From a virus, in the IMG/VR virus record IMGVR_UViG_3300045988_012220, positions 32,001-96,000 of that record: a stretch of 64,000 nucleotides of DNA; one strand, written 5' to 3'. A model generated the notes under the pieces. It searched no databases, was not told the origin of the DNA, and worked only from the letters and a program-made list of their open reading frames with translations. The translations under genes and the position numbers were made by a program. Below, one piece after another: positions 38,277 to 63,906 of the stretch; positions within the stretch are counted from its first letter, which is position 1, and each line of letters begins with the position of its first letter.

Positions 38277-38283
38277 TTAAATT

Positions 38284-41200
38284 ATGGCAAATTACAATTT
38301 ACTTAAGTCCCCAGCAGAGGACTATTTTAGAGGGTAGGCTAAAAAATTTGGTACAACATTACCAAATCAACGCAAATCCGTTCCTAATAAAAGGACTTAG
38401 GCTAATGTACCAAGTTATATATCAAGACAATCTGGTTCAAGATTAGAATCTGATATAATGCCGCATGGAGATTGGTATAAGCCTAGTCAAAAATCTATTC
38501 AGAGATAGAAAAACGCTATAGCTGAATATGACTGGAATAAACATATTGACAGCTTATACAAGCAGCAAGAAAGATCAAATAGGCAAAAGATCGATGCTCA
38601 AGACGACTCGGAAGGCTTACTTTCTGACACAGAGAAAGAGAAGCAATCTAAACTCGAAGAAGATGCCCTTCATCAGGAATATTTAAAGAGTCCGCTGCAT
38701 GCAATATTCGGTTCTATGGGTTCTCCTTTGACCGGATCTTATGATGGTCTTGGAGAAACATTATTTAATATTGGATAGAGAGCTGGTCTGTTCTCTGCTT
38801 AGTCTAGCGATCTTGGAATAGAAAGCACAAAGGGTAAGATTGCTCTCGCGCAAACAGACCAAGCTAAAGCAGATGCGTGGGCTAAACGAGAGCGATTAAA
38901 AAGAGATTTAAAATCAAAAGAAGATCAGTGGAACTATCTTAAAGCTAATCCTAAAGCTTAGGTTAAAGGTGATGCGTGGAAGGATACATATCTTCTCGGA
39001 TAGGATCTTCTTAAGACTTACGATTAGTTATAGGATAAAGACCTTAATGAATTAGCAGACGCGTACAAAGCTACATGGATGAAAGATCACACATCTATGT
39101 GGGAAGGGTTCTAGGCTGCTGTAACAAAGATGTTCGCTTCTACAAATGATACATTTGATGGTACTGGTAGATCCAAAGAACAAATGGCTAAAGATTGGCT
39201 TGATAATTATAATAAATAGTTGTCTGATAGATTCGAGAAAGCTCATCAAGGAATGAGTTTGGATCAAAAAGAGATTGAAGCTAATCAATTTAAAGCTAAA
39301 CGCGAACAGGATCTCAAGGATTATAAAGAAACTCTTGATGACCAAATGCGTAGAGCTTCTAAATGGAAGAAGTTCTGGAACGTCAGCAAACATGCTGAGA
39401 ATCTTGCAAACATACATGCTAATGATGACCTTTTAACACCAGATTATTGGTTATGGAATTTACCGCAGCAAATGGGTTCTTCTTGGTCTTCAGACACAGG
39501 TAATATTGGTAATCTTATCACAACGGCTGGTACTATTGGTTCTTTTGCTTTAGGCGCAGCTGGACATCCAGAAGCTGGTTTTGCTTTGTACAACGCCGCT
39601 AATGCAGCAGCACTCCCATTTAACTTACAAGGTGCATAGGATGAGAACTACGCTGAAATTGCTCAGCGTTGGACATAGAACTACCAATAGAATCTCAACA
39701 AATACGAAGTATAGGAAGCGTTCGGTAAAGCTTAGGGTATTTCTGCATCATATAAAGACTTGCAGAAGCAATCTGTAAAGTTCGCGATATAGAATGGTAT
39801 GTCTAAAGATGATGCTGAAAAGAGGTATGATTTAAAAACGCAGCAAGGTAAAGAAAAAGTTCTCGGAGACTATTTGATGGGCATTACTAAGAGTAACGAC
39901 CAACGTTTGTCTAAAGCTAAGCTTGGCACCACAAAGGGTCTTGAGCAGTAGTTTATGATAGATAATGCTAGAACCATGGGTACTGAAGTTGTGCAAAATG
40001 TTATATCATACGTACAGCCTGGTAATAGTCTTTCTAATCTATATCGACAAGCTGTATATAAACTTCCAACAACCAAACTTGGTGCCAAACTTGCTACAAG
40101 TAAAGCTGGTAGACTTGTAATAGGAACAGACTACGCTCTTGCTGGTCTTAACGGAGCTGTTGAAAGTAAATTTGCACAGGCTGGGCAGTATATTAATTCT
40201 CTTACAAGTACAGCTGGCAAAACTGGAGCGAAGATTGGTTCTACAACAATGGATATTCTTGGTGGTGGTGTTCTTGGACACTATGTTGGTGCTGGAGTTG
40301 GTGCTGCCGCAGGAGAAGTTGCTAGAGGAGTAAAGGGGCTTGCAAAAGAAATTATGCCTCAGGCTCTTAAAGATGCTGGCGTAATGGCTGGAGAGGCTAT
40401 ATCCAAGAAAGCTGAAGCCTTAGCAACAATGGTTGGCGCTAAAACATTAAAAAGGAAATTGTTAAAGGCGGCAGTTAAAAACCCTAACACAATGACTGTT
40501 TTAAAGATGCTCAAAAAATACGGAATTAATACTGTTAGAAGCGGATTGATAGACAGAGCATCTGAGGGTAATGAAGAAATTGTACAGCAGTTGAATGCTA
40601 ATGCTGCTGAAGAATTTGCTAAGACATATGGATACGGATCAGCCGATTTGCTTAGTCTTGCGTTCCAGGATATGGCTTATAGTAAAGAGGTGTCAGACTT
40701 CTATAAAGGTATGTTCGGCCTTGGTGAGTCTGAGCTTTACAACGATATGGAGATGTTGTCGAACTGGCGAGGCGGTTTTGCTATGGGTGGTATGCACCCT
40801 ATGGTAGCCATGAACATTTATCACGCTGTTAACGACATTAAGAATACTGTACAAGTAAAAGACGCCATAATGCATAGTGCACTTCTTGATAGAGAACAAG
40901 GAAAGATGAATAGAGCTAGTAATGCTGTCATCTCAGACCAGATCTCTAAGGGAAGATATAATTAGTTAACTACAGAAATACAGTAGCTCAGAGAAGCTGA
41001 TTTGAAGCGAGAGAGACCGCGTTTCGGTGAACAATATTGGAATGACTTACAGTCTAATGTGGAACGTATTTCTGCTCTCGTAAACAATAAATAGATTGAG
41101 CAACAATATCGCCTTAAAGGTATCAACAAAGGCACAGAGCAATACAATGTAGCTATAGCTGATAGAGCTAATATCGAGCAATAGTTAGCTGCCAATAGAA

Positions 41201-44200
41201 AAGCTCAGTAGGAAGCTGAAGTTAGGCTTCAGTAGATTTACGGACAGTAGGGTTATCAAAACCAGGTAGAATAGGCTGTAAATAGGCAGGAATAGTCAAG
41301 AGATCCTATGCTGACTGCTATAAATGCAGCTACAGCAAAGACTAAGGCTATTGAGTCTTACGTTAACAGAAAGGTAGAAGAGTATAAGAAGTCTCTTGAT
41401 ACAGCAGCTTTACCTCAAGAAGAAGTAGAAAAATCAGTAGCAAAATATAAAGAGTCAATTAAAGATGAGGCTAACGAATATGGTGAAAGATTTGTAGAAA
41501 ATTCTTAGAAGGAAGAGCACACTAGGCACGTAAATAACTTCCAGAGAAATTCTGAAGCTCACAATAGAATGAAAGCATTGCTTACACTTAAGGCTAAGAT
41601 GAACTCTATTGATGATATATTTAAGTTTGCTCACGATAAGCTTGGATTAAAGACCGTTAGACCTGATGCTAAATTGCTGTCAGCAAATATAGATAAACAA
41701 ATTTCTCGTGCAAAGCAAAGTTTGGCTAAAGCTTATAAGAATTTTGACGAGAAGTCTACCGATGAACAGACATTGCAATTCTTGAACAACTTTAGCGAAT
41801 CTATTGGATTTAATGATAATGAGATCCAGGAGCTCGAACAAGCTAAGGCCATGTATACAGCTAATGAATCATTACTTAACTCTACATTATCAATTCATAC
41901 AGAAGGTGTTACACGTGATGATAATGGTAATCTTGAGTATAATCCAGATGAGCTTAGATATCAGAGAAAGCAGGCTGAGTTAAAGTAGAAGCTTGGTGAT
42001 AAATACAAGCCAGAAGAGCATACTAGAGCTGCAGCTAAAGATGGATCAAAGAGTAAGCTTAATGAACGTATCACAAAGATTATTGATGCAAATAAACAGA
42101 ATGAAAATATCGACTGGATGTTGTCTGATATATATTCTGGAGACGCTGTAACAAAGCTTACAGAGGATTACTAGAATGATATGCTTAAAGCTGCCGAGGA
42201 AGATATAAAAGACATTAATACTCAAGCCAAATAGGCTGTAGACCCAACAGAAACTTAGCAAAAGCATGTAGCTACTACAGAGGAATTACAGAAACATGCT
42301 GAAGAATATAAGCGTCGTAGAGATAAAGCTAGAGAGCATTATAGAAAGAAGCGTAAGGCTAGAAGGAATAAAGCAAGGGTATCATTCTTACTTGGTTTTG
42401 ATGAACTCGCAATGCAGTCATTCGATGGGCTTATGGAAAACGCAAAGGTTGGCTTCTATAAGTTTGAGTAGCTCTACAATGATATAAAAACTATTCTTCA
42501 AGAAGAGACTGGATAGGATGGTGGGCCTTCGGTATTAGCTTTAGCAAAGGCGATGTATATTCGTCATTATCTTACATCTACACGTAAAGAAAAGGAGAAT
42601 ATGAATACTCCTATAGATGTACAATCTTATGGAGCACAGGTTGCCACACATGCTTCTCAAGATACATCGTTCGATGGATATAGAAAGGCTTTAAAGCGTC
42701 AATAGAATAGAGCTATTATACATTGTTTTCACACAACAATAGCATACGACGATAATGGCGCTCTACATGTATTTGAAAATATAGACGAGATAGACAGACT
42801 TGAATATCAGTCTCATTATCCAGAAATTGAGGAAAATGTAAATATCTCTGATAAATAGTAGATACTTGGATATCTTGCAGATAATACAGATAGGTTTGGG
42901 AATCAAGATTATTCTGATATAATTGATACAATATTTTCTCAGCCAAACAAAGAAGAATTATTATAGGGATTTGCGCATTATTTGGCATCAATAGATACAA
43001 CTTATTTTAATTCTCAATCTATAAGAGATGGAGAAACTATTAGAGAGCTTGCACAGGCTATAATGTTAGGAAATGACGACAGTTTTGCCGATGCACTGTT
43101 AGATAATCCGAATGGATTAGAAGATGCTAAGCAGTACGTTAAATCTGTTAGAGACAGAATGTTAAACGGCGGTCAGTATAGAGTGCTTGATACAGATATT
43201 CCTATTTATGGGTATGATGACAAAGGCAGAGCTATACAATCATAGGCAGATATTGTCCTTGTTGATAATGATGGATAGCTGCTTGTTGTAGATGTCAGGT
43301 CTTCATTTAAACCAGATCTAAAAACCAGAATGCTTGGTAATTAGAAGTCCAACGGTCGAGCTAAAGAAACAATGATCCAGCAGGAATAGAGATAGCTTCA
43401 AAGGTTAAATTAGGTTCTTTATGATACATTTGGCTCTAATATTGAAGGTACATACGTAATGCCATTCTATTACGATAGAACATCACGCGGAATTGCAGCA
43501 GAGCCTGTATTTAAAGTAGAAATGCTTGATTTTAACAAGCCTGTAACACCTTATTACAATAAGTCTAATGAAGATATATCTAATGAAGTTGTTAAACCTT
43601 TGTAGGATAAAGTAAATGAATTAAAGGAAGATTATCAGTAGTTGCTTGATAGTATCACAGAAGCTGGCGACAAGAAATACTCAGATTCTCATGCATTGCT
43701 TGATACATACAATATCTTTAAAGAAGGGTCAAATAAGGATGAATTATTGCTTCAGATGAGAGATCTTCACTCAGCTATAGAATCTATCCAGAGCTTAAAA
43801 GAAGACGCTTAGATGCGCTTAAATTAGCTCCTGTAGCCTAAATAGCACGAGAACACTGTGCCAGAATTCTACCCAGAAGATGCTTTTGATCACGTTATTG
43901 TAGATGAGCAATATTAGGCTGGTCTTGATACAGTTCACGAAATCTGTAAGAAGCTTGATACGCTATTAAGTTCTATCACGGATCTTAACATTACGACAGC
44001 AGACGAACGAGCTCAAGTTAATGAACTCATTTACTCAATATATGATGCCTAGACAGCACTTGATCAATTCTACGGCAGCGATCAGTTTAAAGTTGGTGAC
44101 ACTCTTCCGGAGCAAAAACTTATAGCAGCTGCTATTAACAAGCTCGTAAACAATAGGATGATGTACGGAGATGCTGCAAATAAGGCTTTACAAATGTGGC

Positions 44201-47200
44201 AGTCTCAATTTGCATCCAATATTGGCAATCCTAGCTTTACTTATTTCAACAAGATTAAGTCATTTCTTGCTACATTTGATGGCGAGTTTATGAATAGCCT
44301 TGTTGGTAATAAGAGCTTATAGAGATTCTGGAGTACAGTTATAAATGACTAGCTTAAGTTCTTGGCTGATAATGCAAAGAATGTACAGAAGACTAACACA
44401 GCTCTTGATAATGCGCTTACTGATACTATTTATGATGCAGAAGACTTTATTAGAGAATATAATCAGAGATTCCCTGTGGATCCAAACATTGATGATATAC
44501 TTGATGCAAACAGCGCGTAGAGTATCAACATGATTGACGATCAATGGAGAGAACTGTATAGTGATACTACTAAGCACTTCCCTGCATTCAGAGCTAAACT
44601 TGATCCACATTACTTCTCTATAGCACTTGATCCGCATTTGATTTATCCAGACGCTTCTGGGAAATCTGGTAATGCTGAGCTTATATGGAGAAATAATGAA
44701 GTATAGCTTAAGCTTACAGACTCTAAGGGAAGAACGATCTTTATGACATTTGATCAAGGTAATGATGCTGGTCCTAGAGGTGTCGATCCAGTATATTTTG
44801 CTAGAAAGAAAGCTGCAGATTCTGTGTTTGTATAGAAAGTTAAGTATATGCTCGACTTTATGAAAACGCATCCAGGATACCATATAAGCATGAAATTAAG
44901 CCGTTCTAAGGGCTCAATTAAGAACGGTGGAGAATTATAGCCTGTAAGTAAATTCTTATTCGCAGGAACGCTTAATTAGCATGATTTGTACAATATTACA
45001 TGCGATGCTGGTAATAGAATAGGTTTCCTTAAGGCTACGCAAAACGTAAACACCGGTGACGTAACGAAGATGGTATATGGTGGTCCAGAGCTGTCAACTT
45101 TAATTAGCGGATTTGATCTTGAATATGTAAAACGTACAGCTATAACACAATCTGGTAATATCGTATACTTCTACGATACTGGTCAGACTGAGAAGACTGT
45201 AGATAATAGATGCATTGGCACACCATTAATATAGCCTAAGTTTACAGCTGGCCAAGGCGGTTAGGCTAATAAGATTGCAGACCTTATATGGTATAAGTGT
45301 TATCAAGGCTTAAATGAGTATCAAGGTTATTCTATAGATGATTTACTTAAGTAGGTTCTTTATATTAAGGCTGATAATAAAGTATTAAATGAGAAATATA
45401 ACTCAATAGAAGGTCTTGTTACATTAGATCCAGCTAACAAGAGAGTTATTATAGGCAATGTCATTTACCCTACATAGAACCCTAGTGTAGACTACGCTAA
45501 TATCTATAACGCGCTGTGTAATATGTATATGACAAAAGACGCCGCATTTGTTCAGTAGAACATGCAGCAGTATATATAGTCATCACATAATAGTGTATTA
45601 GCTAAGCTTAACGCACAATATGCATCAGACCCTAATCTTGATAAAGTGGAACTTCCAAATGGTCTTACGTTTACAAGAGAAGACTTTACTCACGACGGTA
45701 AGGGTACAACTGGTCTTGGTTATATGTTGCGCAACGGTTATTTAATGTCGTACGCAGCTAAGTTGGAGCCACCTACAGTATATGTAGACAACGTAGAGCT
45801 TGTGCAAGATCATCCGGACGAAAGTGCTCAGCAAGTGTCTAAAACAGTTGCTAAACAAGATGTTCAATAGCAACAAAAGTAGGCTGAAGACACATTTATG
45901 GCTTTGTTCTACGAACAAGATTTAAGTGAGTTTTATGGACAGAAAGAAAAACCTTCGTTTGCTAACGCTGTTGATGAGTGGGTTAGAAAAACCACTGGCA
46001 TTACTCCACAATGGGTTGAAAACGAGAGGTTATCTGACGTGGCCTACAAAAAGAATAGTGCAGTACTCGCTAAATGTACAGACGCTGTTATTCAAATATC
46101 TAATTCTGTTCCTTACACTATTGGATTCCACGAAGGATTCCACAGAGCGTTAGAACTACTTGTAGAGCCATCTATTAGAGAATAGATGTATTCAGCATAC
46201 AGAAAAGCTCACCCAGAAGCTGCCACAGAAAGAGACGTGGCTGAAGGTTTAGCTGACTTATTTGTTGATTATATGCTTGGCACAAAAGATGCTAACGCCA
46301 TAAAGAAACAAGGATGGATTAAGAGAAATGTAAAGAAAGTAGCTAACAGATTAAGCATCTTATGGCATTATAGAAACAATGCTAAAACAGTTCTTACTTT
46401 GTTCAATGATATCAAGTCTGGGAAATATGCAGATAAATAGGTAAGTAAAGAACAGTAGGATAGGTTTAAAAAGCTGTTTGGCGAAGACTTGCATTATGAA
46501 ATAAATGGACGCAAATTCGATCATATAGGATCAGCTGCCGAGAAAGAGCATATGGCTAGAGCTCTTGGATATATTATAGTAAAGTCAGCTAAAGATGCTA
46601 CGGATATATATGATGCTGTACATGACTCTTCTGAACTTCCTATCAAATATATACCAATGAGAGTTATAAATAACCTTATTGGCGAGCCTGGTTCTGTTAA
46701 GCCTGTTCTGAATGGATAGTATATGTCTGTGAATTCGGTTACTCCTACACAGCAAGCGTTTAGAGAAGTGTTTTACGAAGAGTTAAACGATAAAGGTAAC
46801 ATTGTATTCCCTAATTTCTCAGCTATATCAAAAGAGGTATAGAAGTATCTTACCGAAATAATGGATGCTTATGACGGCAAATATCAGCATGATGACGATT
46901 CTGAGACAAGTGACCAGGAAGAGAATGATTATGGAAAGTCTATCGAAAGATACGATAAATCTGCATTCGAGTTCAATAAACTTGATTCTGTAAGTAAACC
47001 AGTAAAAATGTTCTTTGCCACAATACCTTACTACAAGTTTAATGATAATGGCAAACTTACACTTGATATATCTAAGAATATATATGGTATTCCTACATTT
47101 ATGCCTATTAAGTAGGTATTTAATGTAATTGTTAGCAAATTACATGATGTTAAAACACCTTTAGACTTATTAAATAGACTACAAGAGCTGTCTACGTAGA

Positions 47201-50200
47201 ATCCTATGTACATGGCGATCTATTAGAAGTATAATGATCTATACAATTCTATATATACATTTAACGACGATGATTAGCTTGAAAAGATAGACTTCGATAA
47301 AGAGGCGTTTATGATACAGATATTTACAGCTATCAAGGGTCACGAGCATAACTTTATTATTGGTAGGTCTATACGCGATAAGAATGGAGGCGTAGAAGTT
47401 AAAATATCTGATGCAAACTTCGATAGAGACGCAAGAATGTACCCTAAGCTTTGGAATTCATTCTTATCTTCTGGCCAATCTGGCTTATTATAGAGATCAG
47501 TTGGGTAGAATGGACAATTACTTCTTTCTACAAAGTATAACACAAATAATACTTAGGTAGATATGCCTACAACTGTAGCAAGAAATGCATTTAGATTTAT
47601 ATCTCAATTTTTCTCTGATTTACAGTCGTAGATACTGAATGATTCTACTAGCGAATTTAAGATAAACGGAAGAATTAGAAGCGCAGCGTCTAATAGTGAT
47701 ATCGAAGTACTTAAGGATGATATATGTAAAGAATTTAATATGCTTGGCATAAACTTTACTAAAGAAATGCTCGACCATATGCTGTCTACAAAGTATAATG
47801 GTGTTGGTAGAGAGGCTCTTAAGAAATGGATTACATCAACAGGCGTGTCTAACATTAACAGTTTTATTGATGCCGTAGGTAAAGTTGTGCAAACTAATGG
47901 TTATACAACATAGAAGGCTATAGACTAGATATTTAAGACTGGTTTTGTTAGCGAATTAGGTAACTGGGCTGGAGCTTACATGAAGATTACTACAGATAAG
48001 ATGTCTAATGGTATGGATGGTACTAAGCTGTATAATGAGTCACAGAACAATAGCATTAGCAATACTACAGAGAATCTTAATAGCCACGATAAGAATAATA
48101 TGGTAGTAAGGACTATTTTGTAGTCTAGCTACAATATCATGAACAACAATGGTGTAAATATGGGTTCTATTGTAGCAAAGCAATTACAGAACGGAGAAGA
48201 TTTCAATATTAGTATTTATACTCCTATTGGCTTTAAGTCTGATAATCGCGGTGACAATGGCTCAAAATATAGTAATCTTGCAGAAGCCGAAGATTATATC
48301 AATAAGTTCGCAATGCTTTAGAACGGATACTGTATATTCCCAACACTTGCCGACAAAGGTACATATATGGTTCTTGGTGGTATAAATATCCCAGGAATGG
48401 AGTTTGGGCAGTCAGATAATGGTGTTTATACTGTATCTGGTGCTCCGAAGATGGTATTCTTAGATAGTACGCACTATTACTTACAGCCTAATCAATCTGT
48501 ATTAAACTAGTTTATTGACTATGCTTATACAGAGCGTGAAGCTATACTTGATTGTAGAGAACAACTTGGCTTACCTGTAGATAATCCTAAAGGTTTACCA
48601 GTACTTAATGATGAAGATAAGATAATGAATTATCACATCGGTAAGAAAGGGAAATAGCCTGGCGGTATTCAGTTTAAATCACTTACAACACTTAGAGTGT
48701 ATGAAGATGGATAGATTAAACGTTACGAAATAAGCAAGATGTCTCCTGATGAATAGCTTAAAACTCTTAATGAGCAATTCTTCGACAGATCTAGAGAAGA
48801 GCAAGAATAGATAATGTCATTAACTCTTTAGGAGCAATATGAGAACGAAGTAGATAAAGCTGTTAGTCTTGGCATTGTTTCAAAGGATGAAAAGCTTGGT
48901 TATCTTGGGCTTAATAACATTAACCTCAATCAGAGCCAAATAGACGCCGTAGAACGCACTTTGTACGCTCAGATGTATAAGGATCTCACAGATAAAGGAA
49001 TAACACCTAATACGCAAAATTTGCAGCGTACAGCACATAGTATGGCTATTACTGCTATATTACAAGATGCAACGAATAGAGCTATTATTTCATCTGAGGA
49101 AAGTTTGAGATTATATATCGGTAATCCTGGGTTCTTTAAGAATGTAGAAGATATTCAGAAACGTATTGGCGGTCTTGTATCTACTGGTGATGACAACGTT
49201 ACATCTTTGTCAAATTACGACGGATCAGATGGAGAGCTTTATAGATGTGCTGAAATATCAGATTATGAAGTAGCTTCAAATGCTGATATTATGAGCGAAC
49301 TTCAAGAGAAGATGCGCGATGGTGAGCTTAGAGAAATTTATGGAAACCGTTACGGATTTAAAGGTGTTGACGATTTAGATATCGGTGCAGTAAGAGCTAG
49401 ACTTGTAGATGACTTTGGTGAAGATGCTGTTAAGAAAATAGAAACAAGAGCTAATAACTTCTATGAAGCCTATACGTGCGGCATAAATGTAGCTGATGGT
49501 GCATCTTATATTACAGCTGATATGTGTAAAAGAATGCTTAGAGCTAGAGGTGCATTAACAAACGACGTAGCTAAGGCTATTAACATTCTAGAAAGCTCTA
49601 ATAAATACTCTTGGATGGACCAGAAAGATGCATATAAACTTATATATGATAAAGTAAATCTTGTAACAACCAAGTATACCGCTTATGGATTTAGGGACCA
49701 TACAACTAATGGGAAGAAGGTTTCTAACTTAGCTGTACCATACTACAATAAGTTTGCATTGTTCCCTATATTCGATTGTATAGCTACTGGTAAGCTTAAG
49801 AATGTGTATGATAAGATGAAGGAAAGTAAGGTTGATAATCTTCTTATGACGTCTGCCGTAAAGGTTGGTCTACAAGGTCATTCTGAGTTCGATGGTAATA
49901 CTATTAGCAAGCCGCTAAATGTTTATACACAGAGACTTTCTGCGCTCCGCAGGCAGCTTAATACAGACCCAGAGGAAGGTGATGTTGTAGCAGCTGGTAC
50001 ACAGATGATTAAGGTTTGCTTGTCTAGTTTGCGACTCGATAGAATGTATGGCGATATGACTGGAGAATAGCTTAGAGATAAGCTTATGGGCTCTATCAAT
50101 AAACTTTCTAAACTTGGTGTAGATAAGTTTAAAGACAGATTCTATTCTAATGGTATTATAGACCAAAAGAAGCTTAGCGAATATCTTATAGAACAACTTG

Positions 50201-53200
50201 GTACAAGAAATGCTAATAAGAATCTTATAGACGCTCTTACGTATAATCCATAGACATGCTCAATGAATGCGCCTATTGCGTCTACTGCTGATGCAAGTTG
50301 GATGGAGTCTATGCTTATATCTGCAGCTAATAAAGATATTATTGACATCATGACTCCTGGTAGCTCATTTATTCAGAGATCAGTCTTTGCTATAGAAGGT
50401 AAAAATGGCGAAGGTAATATATAGGGACAGGAGATCTATAATGGTAAGAGATTATAGATGATAAATAAAGAGGGCTCTATGGATGCAGTAATATCTATAG
50501 ATTACTTCCAGGATATTCTTCCGAAAAACTTGTCTTACAACGAGGCTAGACAATGGCTCTTGGATCATAATATAATTGGAGAAAGTGCTACATCTAATAC
50601 GATCGGTTATCGTATTCCTACACAGGCTCAGTCATCTATACATGCTTTACGTTTTGTAGATGTTGTACCTGCTGTCAAATCCACGGTAATACTTCCAACT
50701 GAGTTTACCAAGATCACTGGTTCGGATAAACTATATCAATGTTCAAACCAGTATAATATAAAAAACTCCTTTAATTGCTGGGAACTCCATATCAAGTGGA
50801 CAATCAGCAGCCAAGCCCATTATGGGAAGGTTCAACGACTATCGAAATCATAGTATAAGAGAAACACTTATACGAAGAAGAGAGTAGAGTACACGAAAGT
50901 GGAAATGGGGAGCTTTTAGTATATGGTAATAGTATACTAATTGAAGATATAGTCTGATCTCATTGGTAACAATGAGTTAACAAAAATGTTTGATATCGAC
51001 CATCTTTATTTAGCACGTTATAACGTTAATGAGAGTGGTGGTTATGAATTTGATCCAGAAAGTGCAGAAGGATTACAGAATAGTATTATCGAAAGCATTC
51101 TTACAGTACTTAAGGATAAAAAGTCACTTAACATCTTGTATAAGTCTATCGATAATGATACTGAGCTTGTAACAAGCATAGCTGATGAAATCCCAGAACA
51201 GGGTAATACGAAGAGTGTAGCATACAACTTTGGTACATTACATGAATAGGTTACTCGTAAAAATGACTACATTACAGGTAAGACTGGTATCGGTCCATTT
51301 GCGTTGAATGTAACAAACCATATTCTTACAACATTATATGGCGTTAAATTTAAAGAGTCTAGCTTTACACAAATAACAGGTATTACTGGTTTTGATTAGA
51401 TTCTTGACGAAGATAATAATCAGATTTCATCTTGGTTATCAGCATTTATTAATGCCCACGTAGATATTGTGAAAGATCCATATATATCTAAGCTTAATGT
51501 AAACGGATTTACGTACAATATGATTAACTTGCTTGCTAGAAATGGCAAGGGTAAACAAGGTCTTTATTTCTTGTGTTAGCCTATAATTAGAGAGATGGCT
51601 AAAGCTGATATAGATACTAAGTCTCAGTTTACTAGAGATCCTAAGGTATTTAGATCTGCTTTCGAAATGAGGGATAAGAGATTAGCTGAAATATTCCCTA
51701 GCGTTACCGGTAAGACAATAGACGATTAGTATATTAAAGATGCTACAGAACTAAATAAATCTAAAGGCGAACCTGCTAGAAGGGCTGAGATAGTGAACTC
51801 TGTACTCAACAATATGGATATGCTTTAGAAGATAGCTAAGAATCCGGATTTAGTCTATGCTTAGACAGAAGAGGGAGAAAAAGCTAGAGCTTTCTAGGTT
51901 AATTGCTACATAGCATGGAAGTGCCTTGAAAAGTATTCTAATGCATTAAATAGTTTGGTACAGTACACTAAGATTGACACTCGTAAACAGGGTAAGAATT
52001 TCCTTGAAATGCAAGCTTATCTTAGAGGTTATGAGAATCTTACAAACCCAGAAACTGATTAGCTGTTTGATATGGATTCTATCAACAATCTTATACATGG
52101 TACTTGGATTGAGCAGAAAACAAGAGACGCTATTCAAGAACCCATGAGAGTTATGGCTGGACAATCATTCTAGGGTACACCTTAGTTTATGGAGTAGCTT
52201 ATCAATTTATCCGACGACTTTAAGTATAAAACAAACGACAGAGAGTCTGATTTACTTAGAAATGCTAAGACTATGAAGAAAATATCATAGGCTGCTAGTA
52301 GTTAGATTAAGGCTAGATATGCTGTTAGATTAGCTAAATCTTTAGGTATTGATATTAAAGGTTTGTTCGACGGGAATGCTACAATATTTGACAGACTTAA
52401 TTCTATATAGGCTTGCATACAGAGAGATGCATATGGTTTAGGTAGATTAAAGGATAATTATCTATTATCGCATCTCGCTCCATATATTTAGGATTAGGAT
52501 GTTTTCGTAAATGGAAAACTTACCAATAAGCCTAAATTTATAAGTGTTATTAATAGTATGGATGAAAGTAAAATGTCTGCTGATATGTTTATAGAGTCTT
52601 GGGAAGAACTTCTCAATGACCAATAGGCTAATGTAAGAAGATTTGCAAATGATCTTATATTGTATGCAATGCTTACATCTGGTGACACAAAAGGCTTTAA
52701 TAAAATAGCCAAATACATTCCTATGAGTTGGCTTGAAGTTAGACACGATGAGAGCACCGTACCATTCTCTGATTATATTAGGGAACAACTTGAGGCTCCG
52801 GAAATTGATCACGATCTTATAGCTTAGAACAACTATATGGATAGCGATTTGGTGAGCAGGGCTACATTCAAAGATTACTATTATGCTTTCAATGCTTAGT
52901 ACTCTCCTGCTGTAATAATTAGTAAGGATTCTCACGAACACGACGCTTTGTATATATCAGTACGAAATGATGGAGCGGTATATAGTGATCCAACGTCGTA
53001 CACATTGTATAAAAAGGTTGGAGAAGCTATGATTAATGGATCCAAACGTGCTGTATATGCGTTATTACCTAAGAGGGGATGGTCCGATAGAGATGGTCTT
53101 AATATATACGAAGCAGGTGATATTAATCTTAGTGTAAATGGCATTCCTATGAGTCAAGAAGTCATTGAAAGTCAGCTTGATAAACTTATGACTTACTTGA

Positions 53201-54039
53201 GCCAGATGAAGCCAAATATTACTGACGAGTAGCGCAATAACTGGATGTCGTGGTTTAATTAGATGTATTACAATGCTAATTCAGAATATCCTACAATATC
53301 ACAAGCTGTAGAGCAGCAAAGCACACAAAGTGTTAGTAATATTAATCTTGATGGCAAAGGCCCTTCTGGATAGACTGTGTACATAAGCAAATAGTTATTC
53401 TATAAAGATTAGCCTCAACAACACCCAAATGTACAGTACGTGTTCACAGATAATGCTTAGTCTTATGCTAAGGCGCAAGGTTTACCTATGCAAGGTTTTG
53501 CTAATTATAACCCAGTATTAAATGTAAGTTCTGGCGCCACTGGTACAAATCAAGCTTGCATTAGAACTGGCAGCGACGGAAAGATTACACCTAACGCGTT
53601 TGGTCTTGTAGTAAAAGTTAATCAGCAAGATGCTTCTGGCAGATGGCTTGCTAAAGATGGTTGTTTCTAGGATAATCAAGGCGACATAATGGCGTTTAAG
53701 TCGTGGGTTAACCATATGCTTGCAAGAATAGATAGAAATAAGCCAATAGTATTCCCATCATAGATAGCTCTTGGTAAAGCAGCTTTGCCTAGAGAGGCTG
53801 CAGAATGGCTTAGTTTACAATTGCTGTCAAGATTTAACATAAAATCAACAGTTTAGGAAAACACTAAAACTGGTTATACTGGCTATGGATTGTCTATAGA
53901 AGGCGTTGTGGATGATAATTATGCTAACACACTAATTAAAGAAGAGTAGTAGAAGTAGGCTTTAGCATAGATTAATCTTACTAAGGAAGATATAGAAGAA
54001 GCTGAAAGAATTAGAAAACATTGCAAAGGAGGTAAATAA
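38284..54039 (+). CDS. giant multidomain protein containing a virion-type RNA polymerase (5164 aa after intron removal)
   Basis: 18 track ORFs from 39220 to 53488 all lie in frame 1. Hand translation is open from ATG 38284 to TAA 54037-54039 apart from TAG codons and the intron. HEGFH zincin motif at 46129-46143. Beta-prime-like GYRIPTQAQSS...ALRF...ITGSD|FDIDHLY. Confidence 0.8.
50728..50988 (+). ncRNA. group I self-splicing intron (ORF-less) inside the RNAP DFDID motif
   Basis: Carries GGTTCAACGACTATC (R) and GAAGATATAGTCTGATCTCAT (S/P9, a 21-nt block identical to the capsid intron). P9 hairpin CTCATTG-GTAA-CAATGAG. The 5' exon ends in T and the intron ends in G. An in-frame TAA lies inside the insert. 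Removal restores the frame and the motif. Confidence 0.85.
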
Positions 54040-60000: not shown

Positions 60001-60731
60001 GAGGAGCGCATACTCAGCTTAAATGGTTTAACCAGCAGATGTTTAATCGTCAAGCCACTATTACAGATCCGGTTAAATTTAACAAAAATGAAGTAAAATC
60101 TCTTAGAGAGTTTTTGACATGGGGGCTTTGTCTAGCATTACTTTCTGTAGGATGGATGGCGTTTCATAGATATGTATAGGACGATACAAAAGATCTTAAA
60201 CCTAAGACTTATGAAGACTCTTTGCCTACTGTAAAGAACTTTATAGACTAGAAGGTTTACCTCAGACTTATAGACCAGTGTATGTTCAGAACTATTGACT
60301 CACAATTTCAGTTGTACAATGTTTATTAGTTTGTAGATATGGTTAAATCCGCAACAACTGTAACATCTGCTGTAGAGAAATTCACGGAAGTACCTACAGC
60401 TATTGCTGATGCAGCCGGATTAACAGGAAATAATCCAACCGACATTATTTCGTCTGACTCAAAGTATAAATACTTCCCACGTTGGCAAAGATCTTTAATG
60501 ACAGCCTCTGGAGTCCTTAACAATATACAAACATGGGGCTCCAGTAGAGGTAACGATAAAGTAGGTAGATGGTACTTTGACAACACAGTGACAGGTACCG
60601 TGTTTAAGATGGGTGGATATACATGGAAAGGTGGCGAAGAAAAGAAATCTAGTTCTGGTAATGTGTTTAAAATGGCTCCAATGTAGCCGATGCCAAAAAT
60701 GGCACCTATGGCACCAATGCCTGGATTTTAA
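54039..60731 (+). CDS. second giant virion/cargo protein with a zincin HExxH motif (2230 aa)
   Basis: AAGGAGG lies upstream of a TAATG start. Nine track ORFs (54039 to 60339) share frame 3. HEMLH at 55743-55757. Stop is TAA 60729-60731. Confidence 0.8.
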
Positions 60732-60773
60732 ACGCGTACTAAAACATTTCACATAAACCAAACCAAACAAAAT

Positions 60774-60806
60774 AGGGGAGCAATACCGATAAGGTACTGT
60801 TCCCCT
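60774..60806. terminator. bidirectional hairpin terminator between the convergent arms
   Basis: AGGGGAGCAATACC-GATAA-GGTACTGTTCCCCT with an A-run upstream and a T-run downstream. It lies between the + stop at 60731 and the - stop at 60813. Confidence 0.6.
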
Positions 60807-60812
60807 TTGTTG

Positions 60813-61277
60813 TTATATAAGGTTTTCTAAAAAGAGTGGAGCCTCGTCTGCCAACGGCATAGCGTAATCCGTTTCTACAGACAAGGTGCTATTACATAGC
60901 AATAATCTTCCTATATCTGAAGTAAGACCCCAAAACTGCAAAATTCGAGTCCTTTCTTCTAGAGTCGGAGAGATTACTCCATCTTTCATCTTACATATCG
61001 ATGGCGTCATACTAAGCTTGTACACCATATATGGTATATTATTGCACCGTTTAGTATAAACGCCTTTAAAACTAGGTGATTTAATAAAACGTCGTGCTCT
61101 ATCTATAGATAAAGCATTCCGTACATCGTCGTTAACAACGAAGTAGATGCTACGATAATCCCCCGGATTGTCAGGGTCATACGTATAGATATCTATAAAC
61201 CCTGATTTTTCAGAGAAGTCATCTAGCTTAATATCGTTCATAATCAAAGGCATTGCTACCTTTGCAAATTTACTCAT
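60813..61277 (-). CDS. hypothetical protein (154 aa)
   Basis: Intact ORF with a TAA stop. Its ATG overlaps the upstream TGA (ATGA). Confidence 0.8.
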   Translation of the reverse strand: MSKFAKVAMPLIMNDIKLDDFSEKSGFIDIYTYDPDNPGDYRSIYFVVNDDVRNALSIDRARRFIKSPSFKGVYTKRCNNIPYMVYKLSMTPSICKMKDGVISPTLEERTRILQFWGLTSDIGRLLLCNSTLSVETDYAMPLADEAPLFLENLI

Positions 61278-62314
61278 AGGTTTAAAGTTTCGCTACCGTC
61301 TCCAGTGTAATAATCATAGCTATGGTCCCATTTATCTGTTCCCAAATGCCATAAATACACTCTCATGAAATCATGTATCGTTACACCTCTAGAAGTAACT
61401 TGTGGAGTAGCTAATCTGAATACTCTTATCTCGTTACTACCTGTTGTATCGATAGCTACGATATAGAATTCAAATCTCCATTTGTTAATTTCACCATTAC
61501 TTAATTCTAACACATTAGTCAGATACCAATATACTGCTTCCTGATAAAAACACAACTGCCTACAGTAATCAAATTCTTTCATACTGTCTTCAAAGTGCCA
61601 TAACTTAGCTGTAGTTTTGATATCCATAATTGTACACGTTCTTGTATCAAAGTTAAATGTACAACTATCAAGCAATGATTTGCACGCAATAGAAGTATAA
61701 GCTCCGTGATTTAGTTCATCTACAATCCAGTAATCCCAGTTTATCTGGAATTCGTGGTATATCTGAACATTTTTATAATCACCAGCCCTTTGTACTAGTC
61801 GGTTTGCTAACTTATGCTCTTCAACATTATGCTGAATCTTCATAAGCTGGTCTAAGTCATACTGAGATATAAGTATCTTCTTAGACTTAATAGCTTCGAT
61901 ATAATCCTTATACTCTACGCTTATTTTAAGCGCTTCTGAGAGGATTTTATCTTCGCTCTTTCCAACTATACTATAAGACTTGCGATAGGCCTCTGAGAGC
62001 TGTTTATTTAGCTCTATTTCAACGGTATTTATTAAGTTTTCGCAGAACTTTTGTGCTTGCGCACTTTTAGGCTTATCGCCATCGAACAGAACGTAATCAT
62101 TCCAGAACTGATCTGGTTGAAGCAGGAACTCGTGTATCATTGTTCCTTTACGTAACTGTGGCAAATCTAAGCCTTTCTCTTTACCATCTAACATATTACG
62201 AAAATAGGTCGGCCCTTTATTCAAGAACCAGCCTATCGCACTATTACTAATGCGCGTATTATCTTCGTAGTATGGAATGTCGTATTCTGGTATTTTGTAC
62301 TCTGGTGTTTTCAT
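61274..62314 (-). CDS. PD-(D/E)XK exonuclease (RecE/exonuclease VIII, DUF3799-like), 346 aa
   Basis: Start taken at MKTPEYK (TAATG overlap with the upstream gene), not at the track's extended start. Motifs GTMIHEFLL, MDIKTT (D-x-K) and CFYQEAVYWY (QxxxY). Confidence 0.75.
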   Translation of the reverse strand: MKTPEYKIPEYDIPYYEDNTRISNSAIGWFLNKGPTYFRNMLDGKEKGLDLPQLRKGTMIHEFLLQPDQFWNDYVLFDGDKPKSAQAQKFCENLINTVEIELNKQLSEAYRKSYSIVGKSEDKILSEALKISVEYKDYIEAIKSKKILISQYDLDQLMKIQHNVEEHKLANRLVQRAGDYKNVQIYHEFQINWDYWIVDELNHGAYTSIACKSLLDSCTFNFDTRTCTIMDIKTTAKLWHFEDSMKEFDYCRQLCFYQEAVYWYLTNVLELSNGEINKWRFEFYIVAIDTTGSNEIRVFRLATPQVTSRGVTIHDFMRVYLWHLGTDKWDHSYDYYTGDGSETLNL

Positions 62315-63204
62315 TAGCATCCTGCACAACAACCACAACAACAATCATCTGAAGCTGCTTTCTTCTTAACATTCTTCAGACAGTTATCTTTACAAGAGCG
62401 AGCATGAGGCTTTATGGCACCTTTTGAAGAAAGGTTCATATCCTCAAACAACTCTTCGAATGTCGTAGTAGGATAGTTATTAGCTTCCTTTACGAAAGAA
62501 ACAATGTTATCAAAACTACATACCTCGAAGTTGTCCTTAATAAAGTCTGTTAAAGACTTTACTTCTTTCTTGTCGTTAAGCTTATCATTCAATACCTCCA
62601 TTATAAGAGATGGAGACATCTCGTCAAACTCACGCCAATAACGTATACGAGAACAACGATCTATCAGATATTCTGATATCTCACTGTCATCGTTACAGGT
62701 AAACAAAATCATATGCTTACCCTTGGTATCAGATCCATCCAATACCTGCAACAAGAAAGAGTCGTCGTAATCCGCAAGAACTTTATCAAGCTCGTCAAAC
62801 AAGAAGCAAACACTTGTGTCACCGAACTTCTCTACAAGATTTCGAAGGATATGTGGACGTATATTTTTGTCTATGTTCACGATCGGAAGACCGCTCTTAT
62901 TGGCAATCATCTTAGCCATTACTGTCTTTCCTGATCCCTTTAATCCTGCGAGCATTACACCAGTAAATCCGCCTTCAGACAGATTATAGCTATTAATAAC
63001 TTTGTCTATGAAACGTTCGTCACGTTGTGTACAATATACCTTAGAAGGTAAAGATAATTCACCAGACTCTTCAAGTGTTATGGCATCTGTGAAACGATCT
63101 ACAATAACATTATAAACCATTCCTGGTGTCAAATCACACTCAAGTCCTTCTGTGTTAAACTTAAAGTTTACGCTCTTACCTACTTTCAAAAATTTCTTTT
63201 CCAT
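62314..63204 (-). CDS. AAA-type ATPase with a C-terminal cysteine cluster (296 aa)
   Basis: Walker A GLKGSGKT and Walker B CFLFDELD. Start taken at ATG 63204 (MEKKFLK). Tail is ...SDDCCCGCCAGC followed by TAA. Confidence 0.85.
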   Translation of the reverse strand: MEKKFLKVGKSVNFKFNTEGLECDLTPGMVYNVIVDRFTDAITLEESGELSLPSKVYCTQRDERFIDKVINSYNLSEGGFTGVMLAGLKGSGKTVMAKMIANKSGLPIVNIDKNIRPHILRNLVEKFGDTSVCFLFDELDKVLADYDDSFLLQVLDGSDTKGKHMILFTCNDDSEISEYLIDRCSRIRYWREFDEMSPSLIMEVLNDKLNDKKEVKSLTDFIKDNFEVCSFDNIVSFVKEANNYPTTTFEELFEDMNLSSKGAIKPHARSCKDNCLKNVKKKAASDDCCCGCCAGC

Positions 63205-63224
63205 ATTTACTGATATTATAATAC

Positions 63225-63611
63225 TCAAATATTGGTTTTTATCTCTTCTATCATCTCGTCTACCTGTTTATGGTTACGGACAAGATAACATTTCATTTTA
63301 CTTCGATGTCGCTTAAGATAATGCTTAAACAATTTCCATCTAAGTGGGAACGAATCTCCCATAAGGCCTTTACATTCTACTACAAACCCTTTTCCTATGA
63401 AGTCAGGTAGATATGTTAAAGGTCTTATTTTTTCGCCTAAATACTCGAACTTATCCAGTAATACGAAATGCTTTGGCTCATATTTAACTGGTATTCCAGC
63501 TTTCATAAAAGCTTCATAAGTATAGCATTCGAGTTTGCTCCTAAAATGGAGGCCATACTTATCGACTTTAGTCGCATTTCGCACCCTGCCTTTAGATTTC
63601 TTGCCTATCAT
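63225..63611 (-). CDS. DUF1064-like restriction-fold endonuclease (possible junction resolvase), 128 aa
   Basis: FRSKLECYTYEAF...YLPDFIGKGFVVECKG...LRWKLFK matches the DUF1064 pattern as I recall it. TGA stop. Confidence 0.7.
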   Translation of the reverse strand: MIGKKSKGRVRNATKVDKYGLHFRSKLECYTYEAFMKAGIPVKYEPKHFVLLDKFEYLGEKIRPLTYLPDFIGKGFVVECKGLMGDSFPLRWKLFKHYLKRHRSKMKCYLVRNHKQVDEMIEEIKTNI

Positions 63612-63906
63612 AATAAAAATTCTTTCCCCTTATCTTGGATACAGAAGTTTTATTAAAATAGACAATTTCGCCGTCAGTTACTTTTTGTTCACCTTCATGA
63701 TGGACACATGCACATATACATCCATCATCACTATAACTATCCCAGATAGTCATTTGCAATTTATTTGGAAGACAAATGCGCATAAATCCACCTTTGCTAA
63801 GGTGAATTTTCTTAGTCAGCTTCTTTGTAAGCCATTTATGCAATAGAGGAGACATTACTGCACCTCCCAGCACACCAAGCAGGCATCCTATTACTACATC
63901 AATCAT
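63592..63906 (-). CDS. small membrane-anchored Cys/His-containing protein (104 aa)
   Basis: N-terminal hydrophobic MIDVVIGCLLGVLGGAVMSPLL, followed by GCICACVHHEGE. Overlaps its neighbours at both ends. Confidence 0.6.
   Translation of the reverse strand: MIDVVIGCLLGVLGGAVMSPLLHKWLTKKLTKKIHLSKGGFMRICLPNKLQMTIWDSYSDDGCICACVHHEGEQKVTDGEIVYFNKTSVSKIRGKNFYYDRQEI

What the first reader, a model, noticed from the sequence alone, without database searches (positions are those of the whole stretch)
50728..50988. Group I intron inserted inside the catalytic DxDxD motif of the virion RNA polymerase
The 5164-aa ORF carries a segment that resembles the bacterial beta-prime double-psi beta-barrel (NRAPTLH...NADFDGD). 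Here it reads GYRIPTQAQSS...ALRF...ITGSD, then a 261-nt insert, then FDIDHLY. The insert contains an in-frame TAA, so it cannot be translated through. It has the group I R and S elements (GTTCAACGACTA and AAGATATAGTC, pairing as P7) and a GNRA-capped P9 hairpin. It follows a T and ends in G. Removing it restores GSDFDID. The polymerase that transcribes the phage genes would therefore depend on RNA self-splicing, and its first catalytic Asp is encoded on a different exon from the other two.
Basis: partly seen in the sequence, partly recalled or inferred. Interest (0 to 1): 0.85.

Follow-up and report, generated by a model that had tools for sequence, protein, structure and literature searches.

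The report
Group I intron splitting crAss-phage RNA polymerase
A 261-base self-splicing-type (group I) intron really does sit inside the catalytic Asp-x-Asp-x-Asp motif of this gut phage's giant virion RNA polymerase gene. It is an ordinary mobile phage intron of a well-known kind, and copies already sit unannotated in public crAss-like genomes.

Summary
Window 50728-50988 (261 nt) scores 87 bits against Rfam RF00028 (threshold 50; E 8e-21). It has a U.G-terminated P1, P10, P3-P9, P7.1/P7.2, a GNRA-capped P9 and a terminal G. Removing it gives ...ITGSD|FDIDHLY..., the sequence found in near-identical intron-less relatives and in the solved crAss-like RNAP (6VR4).

The host is a TAG-recoded Suoliviridae-like crAss phage; the spliced gene encodes 5164 aa.

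The same intron occupies the same site in 12 IMG/VR contigs and in RefSeq cr131_1. It occurs either as this ORF-less form or as a ~900-nt form carrying a LAGLIDADG homing endonuclease. At least 473 related RNAP stretches have the site empty.

Among nine variants, 99.8% of structure cells pair and 15 pairs show compensatory changes. The guide sequence co-varies with the exon in four RNAP lineages. All intron-bearing alleles use GAU for the first Asp, while intron-less ones mostly use GAC.

Best reading: a homing-type group I intron, here without its endonuclease, that must be spliced out to make an active polymerase. Splicing itself is untested.

This is a new member of a known kind. crAss Delta/Zeta phages are known to be intron-rich, and PhiPA3 and AR9 carry group I introns in RNAP genes. 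Interest is modest.

The parts
38284..50727 (+). Exon 1 of the virion RNA polymerase gene (TAG read as sense). Ends ...ITGSD, and the last base, U of GAU, is the 5' splice site.
   Evidence: alignment to 6VR4; empty-site alleles
50728..50988 (+). Group I intron, 261 nt, with no ORF of 80 aa or more.
   Evidence: Rfam RF00028 87.1 bits; boundaries from the empty site; no ORF
50989..54039 (+). Exon 2 of the RNAP gene, starting FDIDHLY (second and third catalytic Asp), through the stop codon.
50716..50727 (+). P1 5' strand (exon ACUGGUUCGGAU).
   Evidence: Pairs with 50741-50752 at 11 of 12 positions, with U50727.G50741 wobble
50741..50752 (+). Internal guide sequence, P1 3' strand (GUUCAAACCAGU).
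   Evidence: co-varies with the exon in L149, L146 and L148
50733..50739 (+). P10 5' strand (AUAUCAA) in the P1 loop. Pairs with 3'-exon bases 50990-50996 (UUGAUAU).
50766..50771 (+). P3 5' strand (CUCCUU). Partner GGGGAG at 50907-50912.
   Evidence: 5 of 6 pairs show compensatory double changes among variants
50776..50809 (+). P4 (UGCUGG/UCAGCA) enclosing P5 (UCCAU..GUGGA, 50786-50800).
50810..50831 (+). P6/P6a (GCC..CCC-loop-GGG..GGU).
50837..50841 (+). P7 5' strand (GACUA, within R element 50830-50841). Partner UAGUC at 50950-50954 within S element 50944-50954.
50853..50901 (+). Peripheral hairpins P7.1 (50853-50873) and P7.2 (50892-50901, GAAA loop). This is the position where related copies carry the LAGLIDADG ORF.
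50916..50940 (+). P8 hairpin. Contains the only in-frame TAA (50938-50940).
   Evidence: 4 compensated pairs; stops listed
50959..50976 (+). P9 hairpin with GUAA (GNRA) loop.
   Evidence: 4 compensated pairs
50988..50988 (+). Terminal (omega) G, the 3' splice site.

Best explanation
Window 50728-50988 is a group I intron of the phage IA-like type, with P7.1/P7.2 between P7 and P3'. It is inserted between the first Asp codon and the FDID codons of the DFDID metal-binding motif of a crAss-like (Suoliviridae-type, TAG-recoded) virion RNA polymerase gene.

Inferred mechanism:
1. In the pre-mRNA, the exon end ACUGGUUCGGAU pairs with the intron guide sequence GUUCAAACCAGU (P1, with U.G at the splice site).
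2. An external guanosine bound in P7 attacks after U50727.
3. The terminal G50988 then enters the same site, and P10 (AUAUCAA/UUGAUAU) aligns the 3' exon.
4. The exons are ligated to GAU|UUU, restoring GSDFDID and a 5164-aa polymerase that is packaged in virions.

The element belongs to a site-specific mobile family. Relatives carry a LAGLIDADG homing endonuclease ORF in the P7.1/P7.2 region, and this copy has none. It is therefore most likely a passenger kept because only exact RNA excision preserves the catalytic motif.

Shown: intron identity, exact boundaries, structure conservation, presence/absence polymorphism, host-gene identity.
Inferred: that splicing happens in vivo, that it is autocatalytic, and that spread was by endonuclease homing.
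For: - Covariance model: Rfam RF00028 87.1 bits, E 7.6e-21.
- Fold: the unconstrained MFE recovers P1, P3-P6, P7.1, P7.2, P8 and P9, z -2.8.
- Boundaries: empty-site alleles in 95-97% identical RNAPs read GGTTCGGAT|TTTGATAT.
- Host gene: the spliced protein aligns to 6VR4 across TGSDFDID.
- Distribution: the same-site intron is in 12 IMG/VR contigs plus cr131_1, as 261-nt ORF-less or 895-972-nt LAGLIDADG_2 forms (Pfam 4e-22). At least 473 related stretches are uninterrupted.
- Covariation: 99.8% of cells pair versus 25-40% when partners are slid; 15 pairs have double changes; 0 of 500 shuffles reach the observed values for percent paired, pairs and cells with double changes, and the covariation score.
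- Exon co-variation: P1 and P10 co-vary with the exon sequence in L149, L146, L148 and the +3-shifted L139.
- Codon bias: intron-bearing alleles always have GAU at the splice site, whereas 71 of 85 intron-less alleles have GAC.
- Family: the core is 77-86% identical to Twort, AR9/PBS1 and phiKZ-like phage group I introns.
Against: - There is no transcript, RT-PCR or peptide evidence for the ligated junction.
- This copy has no endonuclease or maturase ORF, so any protein help would have to come in trans.
- With TAG read as sense, the exon-1 frame stays open 70 codons into the ribozyme core, up to TAA 50938. This could let ribosomes disturb folding.
- P1 has one C.A mismatch in this allele.
- The covariation set is only nine fairly close sequences, so the shuffle statistics overstate independence.
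- The intron ends in an in-frame AUG, so a two-polypeptide reading cannot be formally excluded.
Confidence: 0.9

Rival explanations
1. The intron is dead or unspliced, and the polymerase is made as two polypeptides. One would be about 4219 aa, ending in 70 intron-encoded residues. The second would start at the ATG formed by the last three intron bases (50986-50988). Alternatively the gene is a pseudogene.
For: - An in-frame ATG immediately precedes exon 2.
- RefSeq annotates the cr131_1 homologue as separate CDSs, with exon 2 starting at that ATG.
- No RNA evidence is available.
Against: - All core helices and the R/S elements are intact.
- 15 base pairs are maintained by compensatory changes.
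- The guide sequence tracks exon changes in four lineages.
- GAU is fixed at the splice site in intron-bearing alleles only.
- These patterns are expected only if splicing is under selection.
- A chain break inside the Mg-binding DFDID loop, which is contiguous in 6VR4, would be hard to tolerate. This last point is inference.
Confidence: 0.05
2. The insert is translated: an intein, a lineage-specific insertion, or a translational bypass.
For: Its length is a multiple of three (261 nt) and it is in frame with both exons.
Against: - It contains an in-frame TAA (50938-40), which is used as a true stop elsewhere in the window.
- The related long forms are 895-972 nt; the cr131_1 copy (911 nt) is not a multiple of three.
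- 31 of 37 close RNAP loci lack any insertion.
- The strong RNA-structure signal is not expected of a coding insertion.
Confidence: 0.01
3. It is an assembly or chimera artefact of this contig.
For: None specific. The window is of unknown origin.
Against: The same 261-nt form at the same position is in three independent IMG/VR contigs (L047/L132, L058, L093/L122). The ORF-bearing form is in nine more contigs and in a RefSeq genome.
Confidence: 0.01

Closest known systems
Same-site intron in RefSeq crAssphage cr131_1 (NC_055902.1, about 60203-61113) and IMG/VR relatives
   Same: It has the identical insertion point (ITGSD|FDID). The first 112 nt and last 49 nt are nearly identical to the window's, and P1, P10, P4-P7 and P9 are the same.
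   Different: - The cr131_1 copy is 911 nt and carries a LAGLIDADG_2 endonuclease ORF after the P7 5' strand. The ORF's 3' end overlaps P3', P8 and P7'.
- Its P3 and P8 sequences differ but are compensated.
- The record annotates three separate CDSs and no intron.
Group I introns of crAss-like Delta and Zeta phages (Yutin et al. 2021, PMC7886860)
   Same: It is in the same phage group and has the same TAG recoding. That paper reports introns in core genes, and its Fig. 3 legend notes an intron-encoded LAGLIDADG in the transcription gene block. The window's second intron, in the major head protein gene, matches the listed Delta-group pattern.
   Different: - The paper detected introns through endonuclease domains, so ORF-less copies like this one would not be seen.
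- RNAP is not in its list of Delta-group intron hosts.
- Disruptions inside DxDxD were reported only for Zeta phages and were left unexplained.
PhiPA3 gp210 intron in a virion RNAP subunit gene (Birkholz et al. 2024, PMC11620839)
   Same: It is a group I intron carrying a homing endonuclease. It interrupts a virion-packaged RNA polymerase gene directly next to conserved Asp residues, and intron-minus relatives are targets.
   Different: - PhiPA3 is a multisubunit-RNAP jumbo phage, and the site is in the beta-like subunit, not the DxDxD of the beta-prime-like barrel.
- Its endonuclease is HNH (nicking), not LAGLIDADG.
- Function in phage-phage competition was shown there and is untested here.
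Classical phage group I introns (Twort, AR9/PBS1, phiKZ-like)
   Same: - The core (intron nt about 35-120, P3-P7) is 77-86% identical by blastn.
- The AR9 match lies under an annotated RNA polymerase beta subunit gene.
- P7.1/P7.2 between P7 and P3' is the IA-type layout. Assigning T4 td, nrdB and sunY and the Twort introns to subgroup IA2 is from my own knowledge; T4 was not compared here.
   Different: - The host genes and insertion sites differ.
- This copy has no P2 stem.
- Self-splicing is experimentally shown for T4 and Twort introns (own knowledge) but not for this family.

Membership tests
Group I intron (Rfam RF00028) | Covariance-model score above the curated gathering threshold | tested here: met
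   87.1 bits versus 50, E 7.6e-21, full model 1-253
Group I intron (Rfam RF00028) | P1 formed by the 5' exon end and an internal guide sequence, with U.G wobble at the 5' splice site | tested here: met
   50716-27 pairs with 50741-52 at 11 of 12 positions, with U50727.G50741. It is conserved and co-varies in 7 loci.
Group I intron (Rfam RF00028) | Conserved core P3-P9 with the P3/P7 pseudoknot, supported by covariation | tested here: met
   61 pairs, 99.8% of cells paired, 15 pairs with double changes, slid controls 25-40%. The MFE recovers the nested helices.
Group I intron (Rfam RF00028) | Terminal G (omega G) at the 3' splice site and P10 pairing with the 3' exon | tested here: met
   G50988. 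P10 pairs 50733-39 with 50990-96 (7 bp) and co-varies in L148.
Group I intron (Rfam RF00028) | Exact excision restores the host reading frame and sequence | tested here: met
   Intron-less alleles L108-L112 match the window minus 50728-50988. The 6VR4 alignment is contiguous.
Group I intron (Rfam RF00028) | Guanosine-dependent autocatalytic splicing | not testable with these tools
   Needs in-vitro transcription and splicing, or RNA data.
Subgroup IA (IA2-like phage introns) | Extra P7.1/P7.2 helices between P7 and P3' | tested here: inconclusive
   Two hairpins at 50853-73 and 50892-901 are predicted. No subgroup-specific model was available, there is no P2, and P7.1 shows almost no variation among the four ORF-less copies.
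Mobile (homing) group I intron with LAGLIDADG endonuclease | Intron-encoded homing endonuclease ORF | tested here: not met
   The window intron has no ORF of 80 aa or more. Nine related same-site copies do have one (PF03161, 4e-22).
Mobile (homing) group I intron with LAGLIDADG endonuclease | Presence/absence polymorphism at one site among close relatives | tested here: met
   Empty, ORF-less and ORF-bearing alleles occur in RNAPs with the same local sequence (TVILPTEFTKITGSD).
Mobile (homing) group I intron with LAGLIDADG endonuclease | Endonuclease cleaves the intron-less site | not testable with these tools
   Needs a biochemical assay.
crAss-like virion RNA polymerase (phi14:2 gp66 type), as the host gene | Sequence homology including the DFDID catalytic motif | tested here: met
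   phmmer versus PDB 6VR4, E 1.1e-19, aligned through TGSDFDID. Crassvirales homologues.
crAss-like virion RNA polymerase (phi14:2 gp66 type), as the host gene | Packaged in virions and transcribes early genes | not testable with these tools
   Taken from the literature on phi14:2 as summarised in PMC7886860.
Intein | In-frame translated insert with a Hint domain | tested here: not met
   There is an in-frame TAA at 50938-40, and the strong RNA-structure signal argues against a coding insert. No Hint-domain scan of the insert translation was run.

The most novel reading that the evidence does not exclude
ORF-less group I introns of this family cannot be seen by the endonuclease-domain screens used so far. 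They may account for part of the unexplained RNAP ORF breaks 'within the DxDxD motif' reported for Zeta crAss-like phages. The DFDID site would then be a recurrent homing hot spot: two insertion points 3 nt apart were seen here. Its LAGLIDADG endonuclease might act as an interference weapon between co-infecting crAss-like phages, as PhiPA3 gp210 does.
Probability: 0.2. Interest if true: 0.55.

Novelty: new member of a known kind. Interest (0 to 1): 0.3.

Why it matters
- **Annotation.** Gene callers split the polymerase at this point. In RefSeq cr131_1 it becomes three CDSs, and homologues are named 'DNA helicase', 'DprA-like' or 'nuclear pore complex protein-like'.
- **Intron counts.** Surveys of crAss-like phages that rely on endonuclease domains will miss ORF-less copies and so under-count introns.
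- **Model case.** Empty, ORF-bearing and ORF-less alleles of one site occur in near-identical genomes, at the catalytic centre of the enzyme that starts infection. That makes it a clean natural example of the homing-intron life cycle in abundant human gut phages.
- **What it does not change.** It does not alter how group I introns or crAss polymerases are thought to work.

Tried and rejected
- **ORF listing.** Standard-code (table 11) ORF listing showed no giant ORF. TAG recoding explains this.
- **Suppressor tRNA.** No tRNA gene was found in the window, so TAG=Gln rests on homologue alignment (for example PTqAQSS in L082) and on the literature.
- **Rfam on cr131_1.** The gathering-threshold scan of six annotated relatives found nothing, even though cr131_1 has the intron. 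The endonuclease ORF splits the model. The intron was recognised from the translated read-through and later by weak split hits in similar loci.
- **Short form as a deletion of the long form.** This was rejected as a simple story. Global alignment to L030 matches only the first 112 nt and last 49 nt. A 23-nt P7.2-P3' stretch is shared with the ORF-bearing L145, so ORF loss from an L145-like ancestor remains plausible.
- **Reaching Zeta-group loci.** The profile-based locus search used only the contiguous pattern G[SG]DFDID. It therefore could not find further interrupted or Zeta-group alleles, and served only as a denominator.
- **Yutin et al. supplements.** The files held as text carry no table of intron positions.
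- **AR9 paper.** The AR9 genome paper is not held in the library.
- **Rivals.** Intein, translated-insert and assembly-artefact readings were considered and rejected; see the rival explanations.

Full report
**1. What is in the sequence**

Under the standard bacterial code the region has only short ORFs. If TAG is read as sense, the + strand resolves into long genes. These include 38281..50940 and 50941..54039 in the same frame, separated by a single TAA at 50938-50940.

From ATG 38284, with 50728-50988 removed, the gene encodes 5164 aa and uses 126 in-frame TAG codons. Exon 1 ends ATC ACT GGT TCG GAT (ITGSD). The insert starts AAACTATATC and ends AAAAATG. Exon 2 starts TTT GAT ATC GAC (FDID).

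**2. Is it a group I intron?**

Rfam RF00028 matches 50691-50976 at 87.1 bits (gathering score 50, E 7.6e-21). The only other hit in the window, even at E<=0.1, is a second group I intron at 15855-16076.

I assigned these helices by hand:
- P1: exon 50716-27 with guide 50741-52, 11 of 12 pairs, U50727.G50741 wobble.
- P10: 50733-39 with exon 50990-96.
- P3: 50766-71 with 50907-12.
- P4, P5 and P6.
- P7: 50837-41 with 50950-54.
- P7.1, P7.2, P8 and P9.

An unconstrained MFE fold of 50716-50998 recovers every nested helix of this set (-64.1 kcal/mol, z -2.8).

**3. Exact boundaries from empty sites**

Five IMG/VR contigs (L108-L112) encode RNAPs 95-97% identical to the window's over 329 aa, and their match length is exactly 987 nt. 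Their DNA reads ACTGGTTCGGAT|TTTGATATAGAC, with about 90% identity in the 2 kb on either side. That is the window sequence minus 50728-50988.

Of 37 related loci, 31 are uninterrupted at GSDFDID or GADFDID. The spliced protein aligns to the solved crAss-like virion RNAP, PDB 6VR4 (phi14:2 gp66, E 1.1e-19), straight through IGYRIPNQGQSS...TGSDFDIDKMY. tblastn finds single-piece alignments across the junction in many Crassvirales genomes. The best is cr130_1 (Suoliviridae) at 67% identity.

**4. A site-specific intron family**

RefSeq cr131_1 (NC_055902.1) reads ...ITGSD then RQYQCSNQYNIKN..., compared with KLYQCSNQYNIKN... in the window. At the DNA level it has a 911-nt intron at the identical position. 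That intron carries a 242-aa LAGLIDADG_2 homing endonuclease (Pfam 4.3e-22; PHROG 11023) inserted after the P7 5' strand. The record annotates three separate CDSs.

A pattern joining the S element to FDID codons finds 12 IMG/VR contigs with a same-site intron:
- Three contigs have the 261-nt ORF-less form (L047, L058, L093).
- Nine contigs have an 895-972-nt ORF-bearing form.
- Three of the ORF-bearing contigs sit in very different RNAPs: L149, phi14:2-like ...TKTGSD|FDIDKMY; L146, ...LLSGSD|FDIDKLY; and L148, ...KTGGD|FDIDKLN.

At least 473 related IMG/VR stretches have an uninterrupted G[SG]DFDID, so occupancy is a few percent at most.

L139 and L140 carry a related ORF-bearing intron shifted 3 nt downstream (GSDF|DID), with its own matching P1 and P10.

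**5. Evidence that the structure, and so splicing, is under selection**

- *Pair counts.* Across nine distinct same-site cores, 99.8% of 514 cells form standard pairs, against 25-40% when partners are slid.
- *Compensatory changes.* 15 pairs carry compensatory double changes (P3 5, P6a 2, P8 4, P9 4). None of 500 shuffles reaches the observed values for percent paired, pairs and cells with double changes, or the covariation score. The sequences are related, so these numbers are indicative rather than probabilities.
- *Guide sequence follows the exon.* The pairs are GGUUCGGAU/GUUCAAACC (window), GGCUCUGAU/GUUUGAGCC (L149), GGUAGUGAU/GUUUCUACC (L146) and GGGGAU/GUUCCC (L148). The U.G wobble is always at the Asp third position, and P10 tracks the 3' exon in L148.
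- *Codon at the splice site.* Every intron-bearing allele has GAU for the first Asp, while 71 of 85 distinct intron-less alleles have GAC.

**6. Most likely mechanism**

This is standard group I chemistry and is inferred here. P1 docks, and an external guanosine in the P7 pocket cleaves after U50727. G50988 replaces it, P10 aligns the 3' exon, and the exons ligate to GAU|UUU.

The polymerase is a virion component that transcribes early genes. That is known for phi14:2, as summarised in PMC7886860. Each phage generation would therefore need this splice to package an active enzyme.

The window copy has no ORF, so it cannot home by itself. Its first 112 nt and last 49 nt are almost identical to the ORF-bearing L030 allele, but the middle is unrelated. 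A 23-nt P7.2-P3' stretch is shared with the ORF-bearing L145. This fits ORF loss plus recombination within a mosaic family, and is inference.

**7. Comparison with what is known**

- *crAss-like phages.* Yutin et al. 2021 describe Delta and Zeta crAss-like phages as dense in group I introns and inteins. They detected these through endonuclease domains. [quoted passage not shown] They also report unexplained breaks inside the RNAP DxDxD motif in Zeta phages. A 2023 review repeats this.
- *Literature search.* I found no paper describing this particular intron.
- *PhiPA3.* A group I intron with an HNH endonuclease interrupts a virion RNAP subunit gene right after two conserved Asp residues. It confers a competitive advantage (PMC11620839).
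- *Sequence relatives.* The intron core is 77-86% identical to group I introns of Twort, AR9/PBS1 and phiKZ-like phages. The AR9 match lies under an annotated RNAP beta subunit gene.
- *General rule.* Insertion of homing introns at catalytic residues of essential genes is the expected pattern (review PMC12908238).

**8. Verdict**

This is a new, well-documented member of a known kind, already present but unannotated in public genomes. Its interest is mainly practical: it affects annotation and shows that intron surveys under-count ORF-less copies. It also points to a testable idea about the Zeta-group DxDxD breaks. Splicing itself remains to be shown experimentally.

Noticed in passing
window 15865-16135 (+): A second group I intron (Rfam 93.2 bits, 271 nt) splits the major head protein gene exactly: PHROG 11589 profile positions 5-334 before it and 335-492 after it. 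It is about 68% identical to the RNAP intron and also ends in AAAUG, followed by the exon.
   Followed up: partly
window 1-60731 (+) versus 60813-63906 (-): The + strand late and transcription genes are open only with TAG read as sense; the RNAP alone has 126 in-frame TAGs. A block of overlapping minus-strand ORFs at 60813-63611 is open under the standard code. No suppressor tRNA lies in the window.
   Followed up: partly
L139 1625-2503 and L140 (IMG/VR 3300045988_025212 and _015832): A related LAGLIDADG-bearing intron is inserted 3 nt further downstream (GSDF|DID), with its own P1 (CGACUUU/GGAGUCG) and P10. The DFDID coding site therefore has at least two insertion points.
   Followed up: partly
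window 50728-50940: In the ORF-less form the exon-1 frame runs 70 codons into the ribozyme core before TAA 50938, if TAG is read as sense. The first in-frame TAG is at 50851. The ORF-bearing forms have TAA right after the P7 5' strand (GACUAA). Ribosome entry into the intron might affect folding.
   Followed up: no
window 50986-50988; L003 2589-2591: Both window introns and all same-site relatives end in AUG in frame with the next exon. Gene callers therefore start a separate ORF there, as with cr131_1 gp48. I do not know whether this AUG has any role.
   Followed up: no
NC_055899.1, NC_055901.1, NC_055892.1, NC_055900.1 and other RefSeq crAss genomes: The giant virion RNAP genes are annotated with misleading products: 'DNA helicase', 'DprA-like DNA recombination-mediator protein', 'nuclear pore complex protein-like protein', 'exonuclease V'.
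   Followed up: no
L007-L107 (IMG/VR): The 20-mer GTGGACAATCAGCAGCCAAG (P5'-P4'-P6) occurs in 101 viral stretches from many unrelated phage contigs. One near-identical intron copy recurs in dozens of contigs with the same 5' flank (GATTGAAACTTTTTGTAGTCGCC...). Its host gene was not examined.
   Followed up: no
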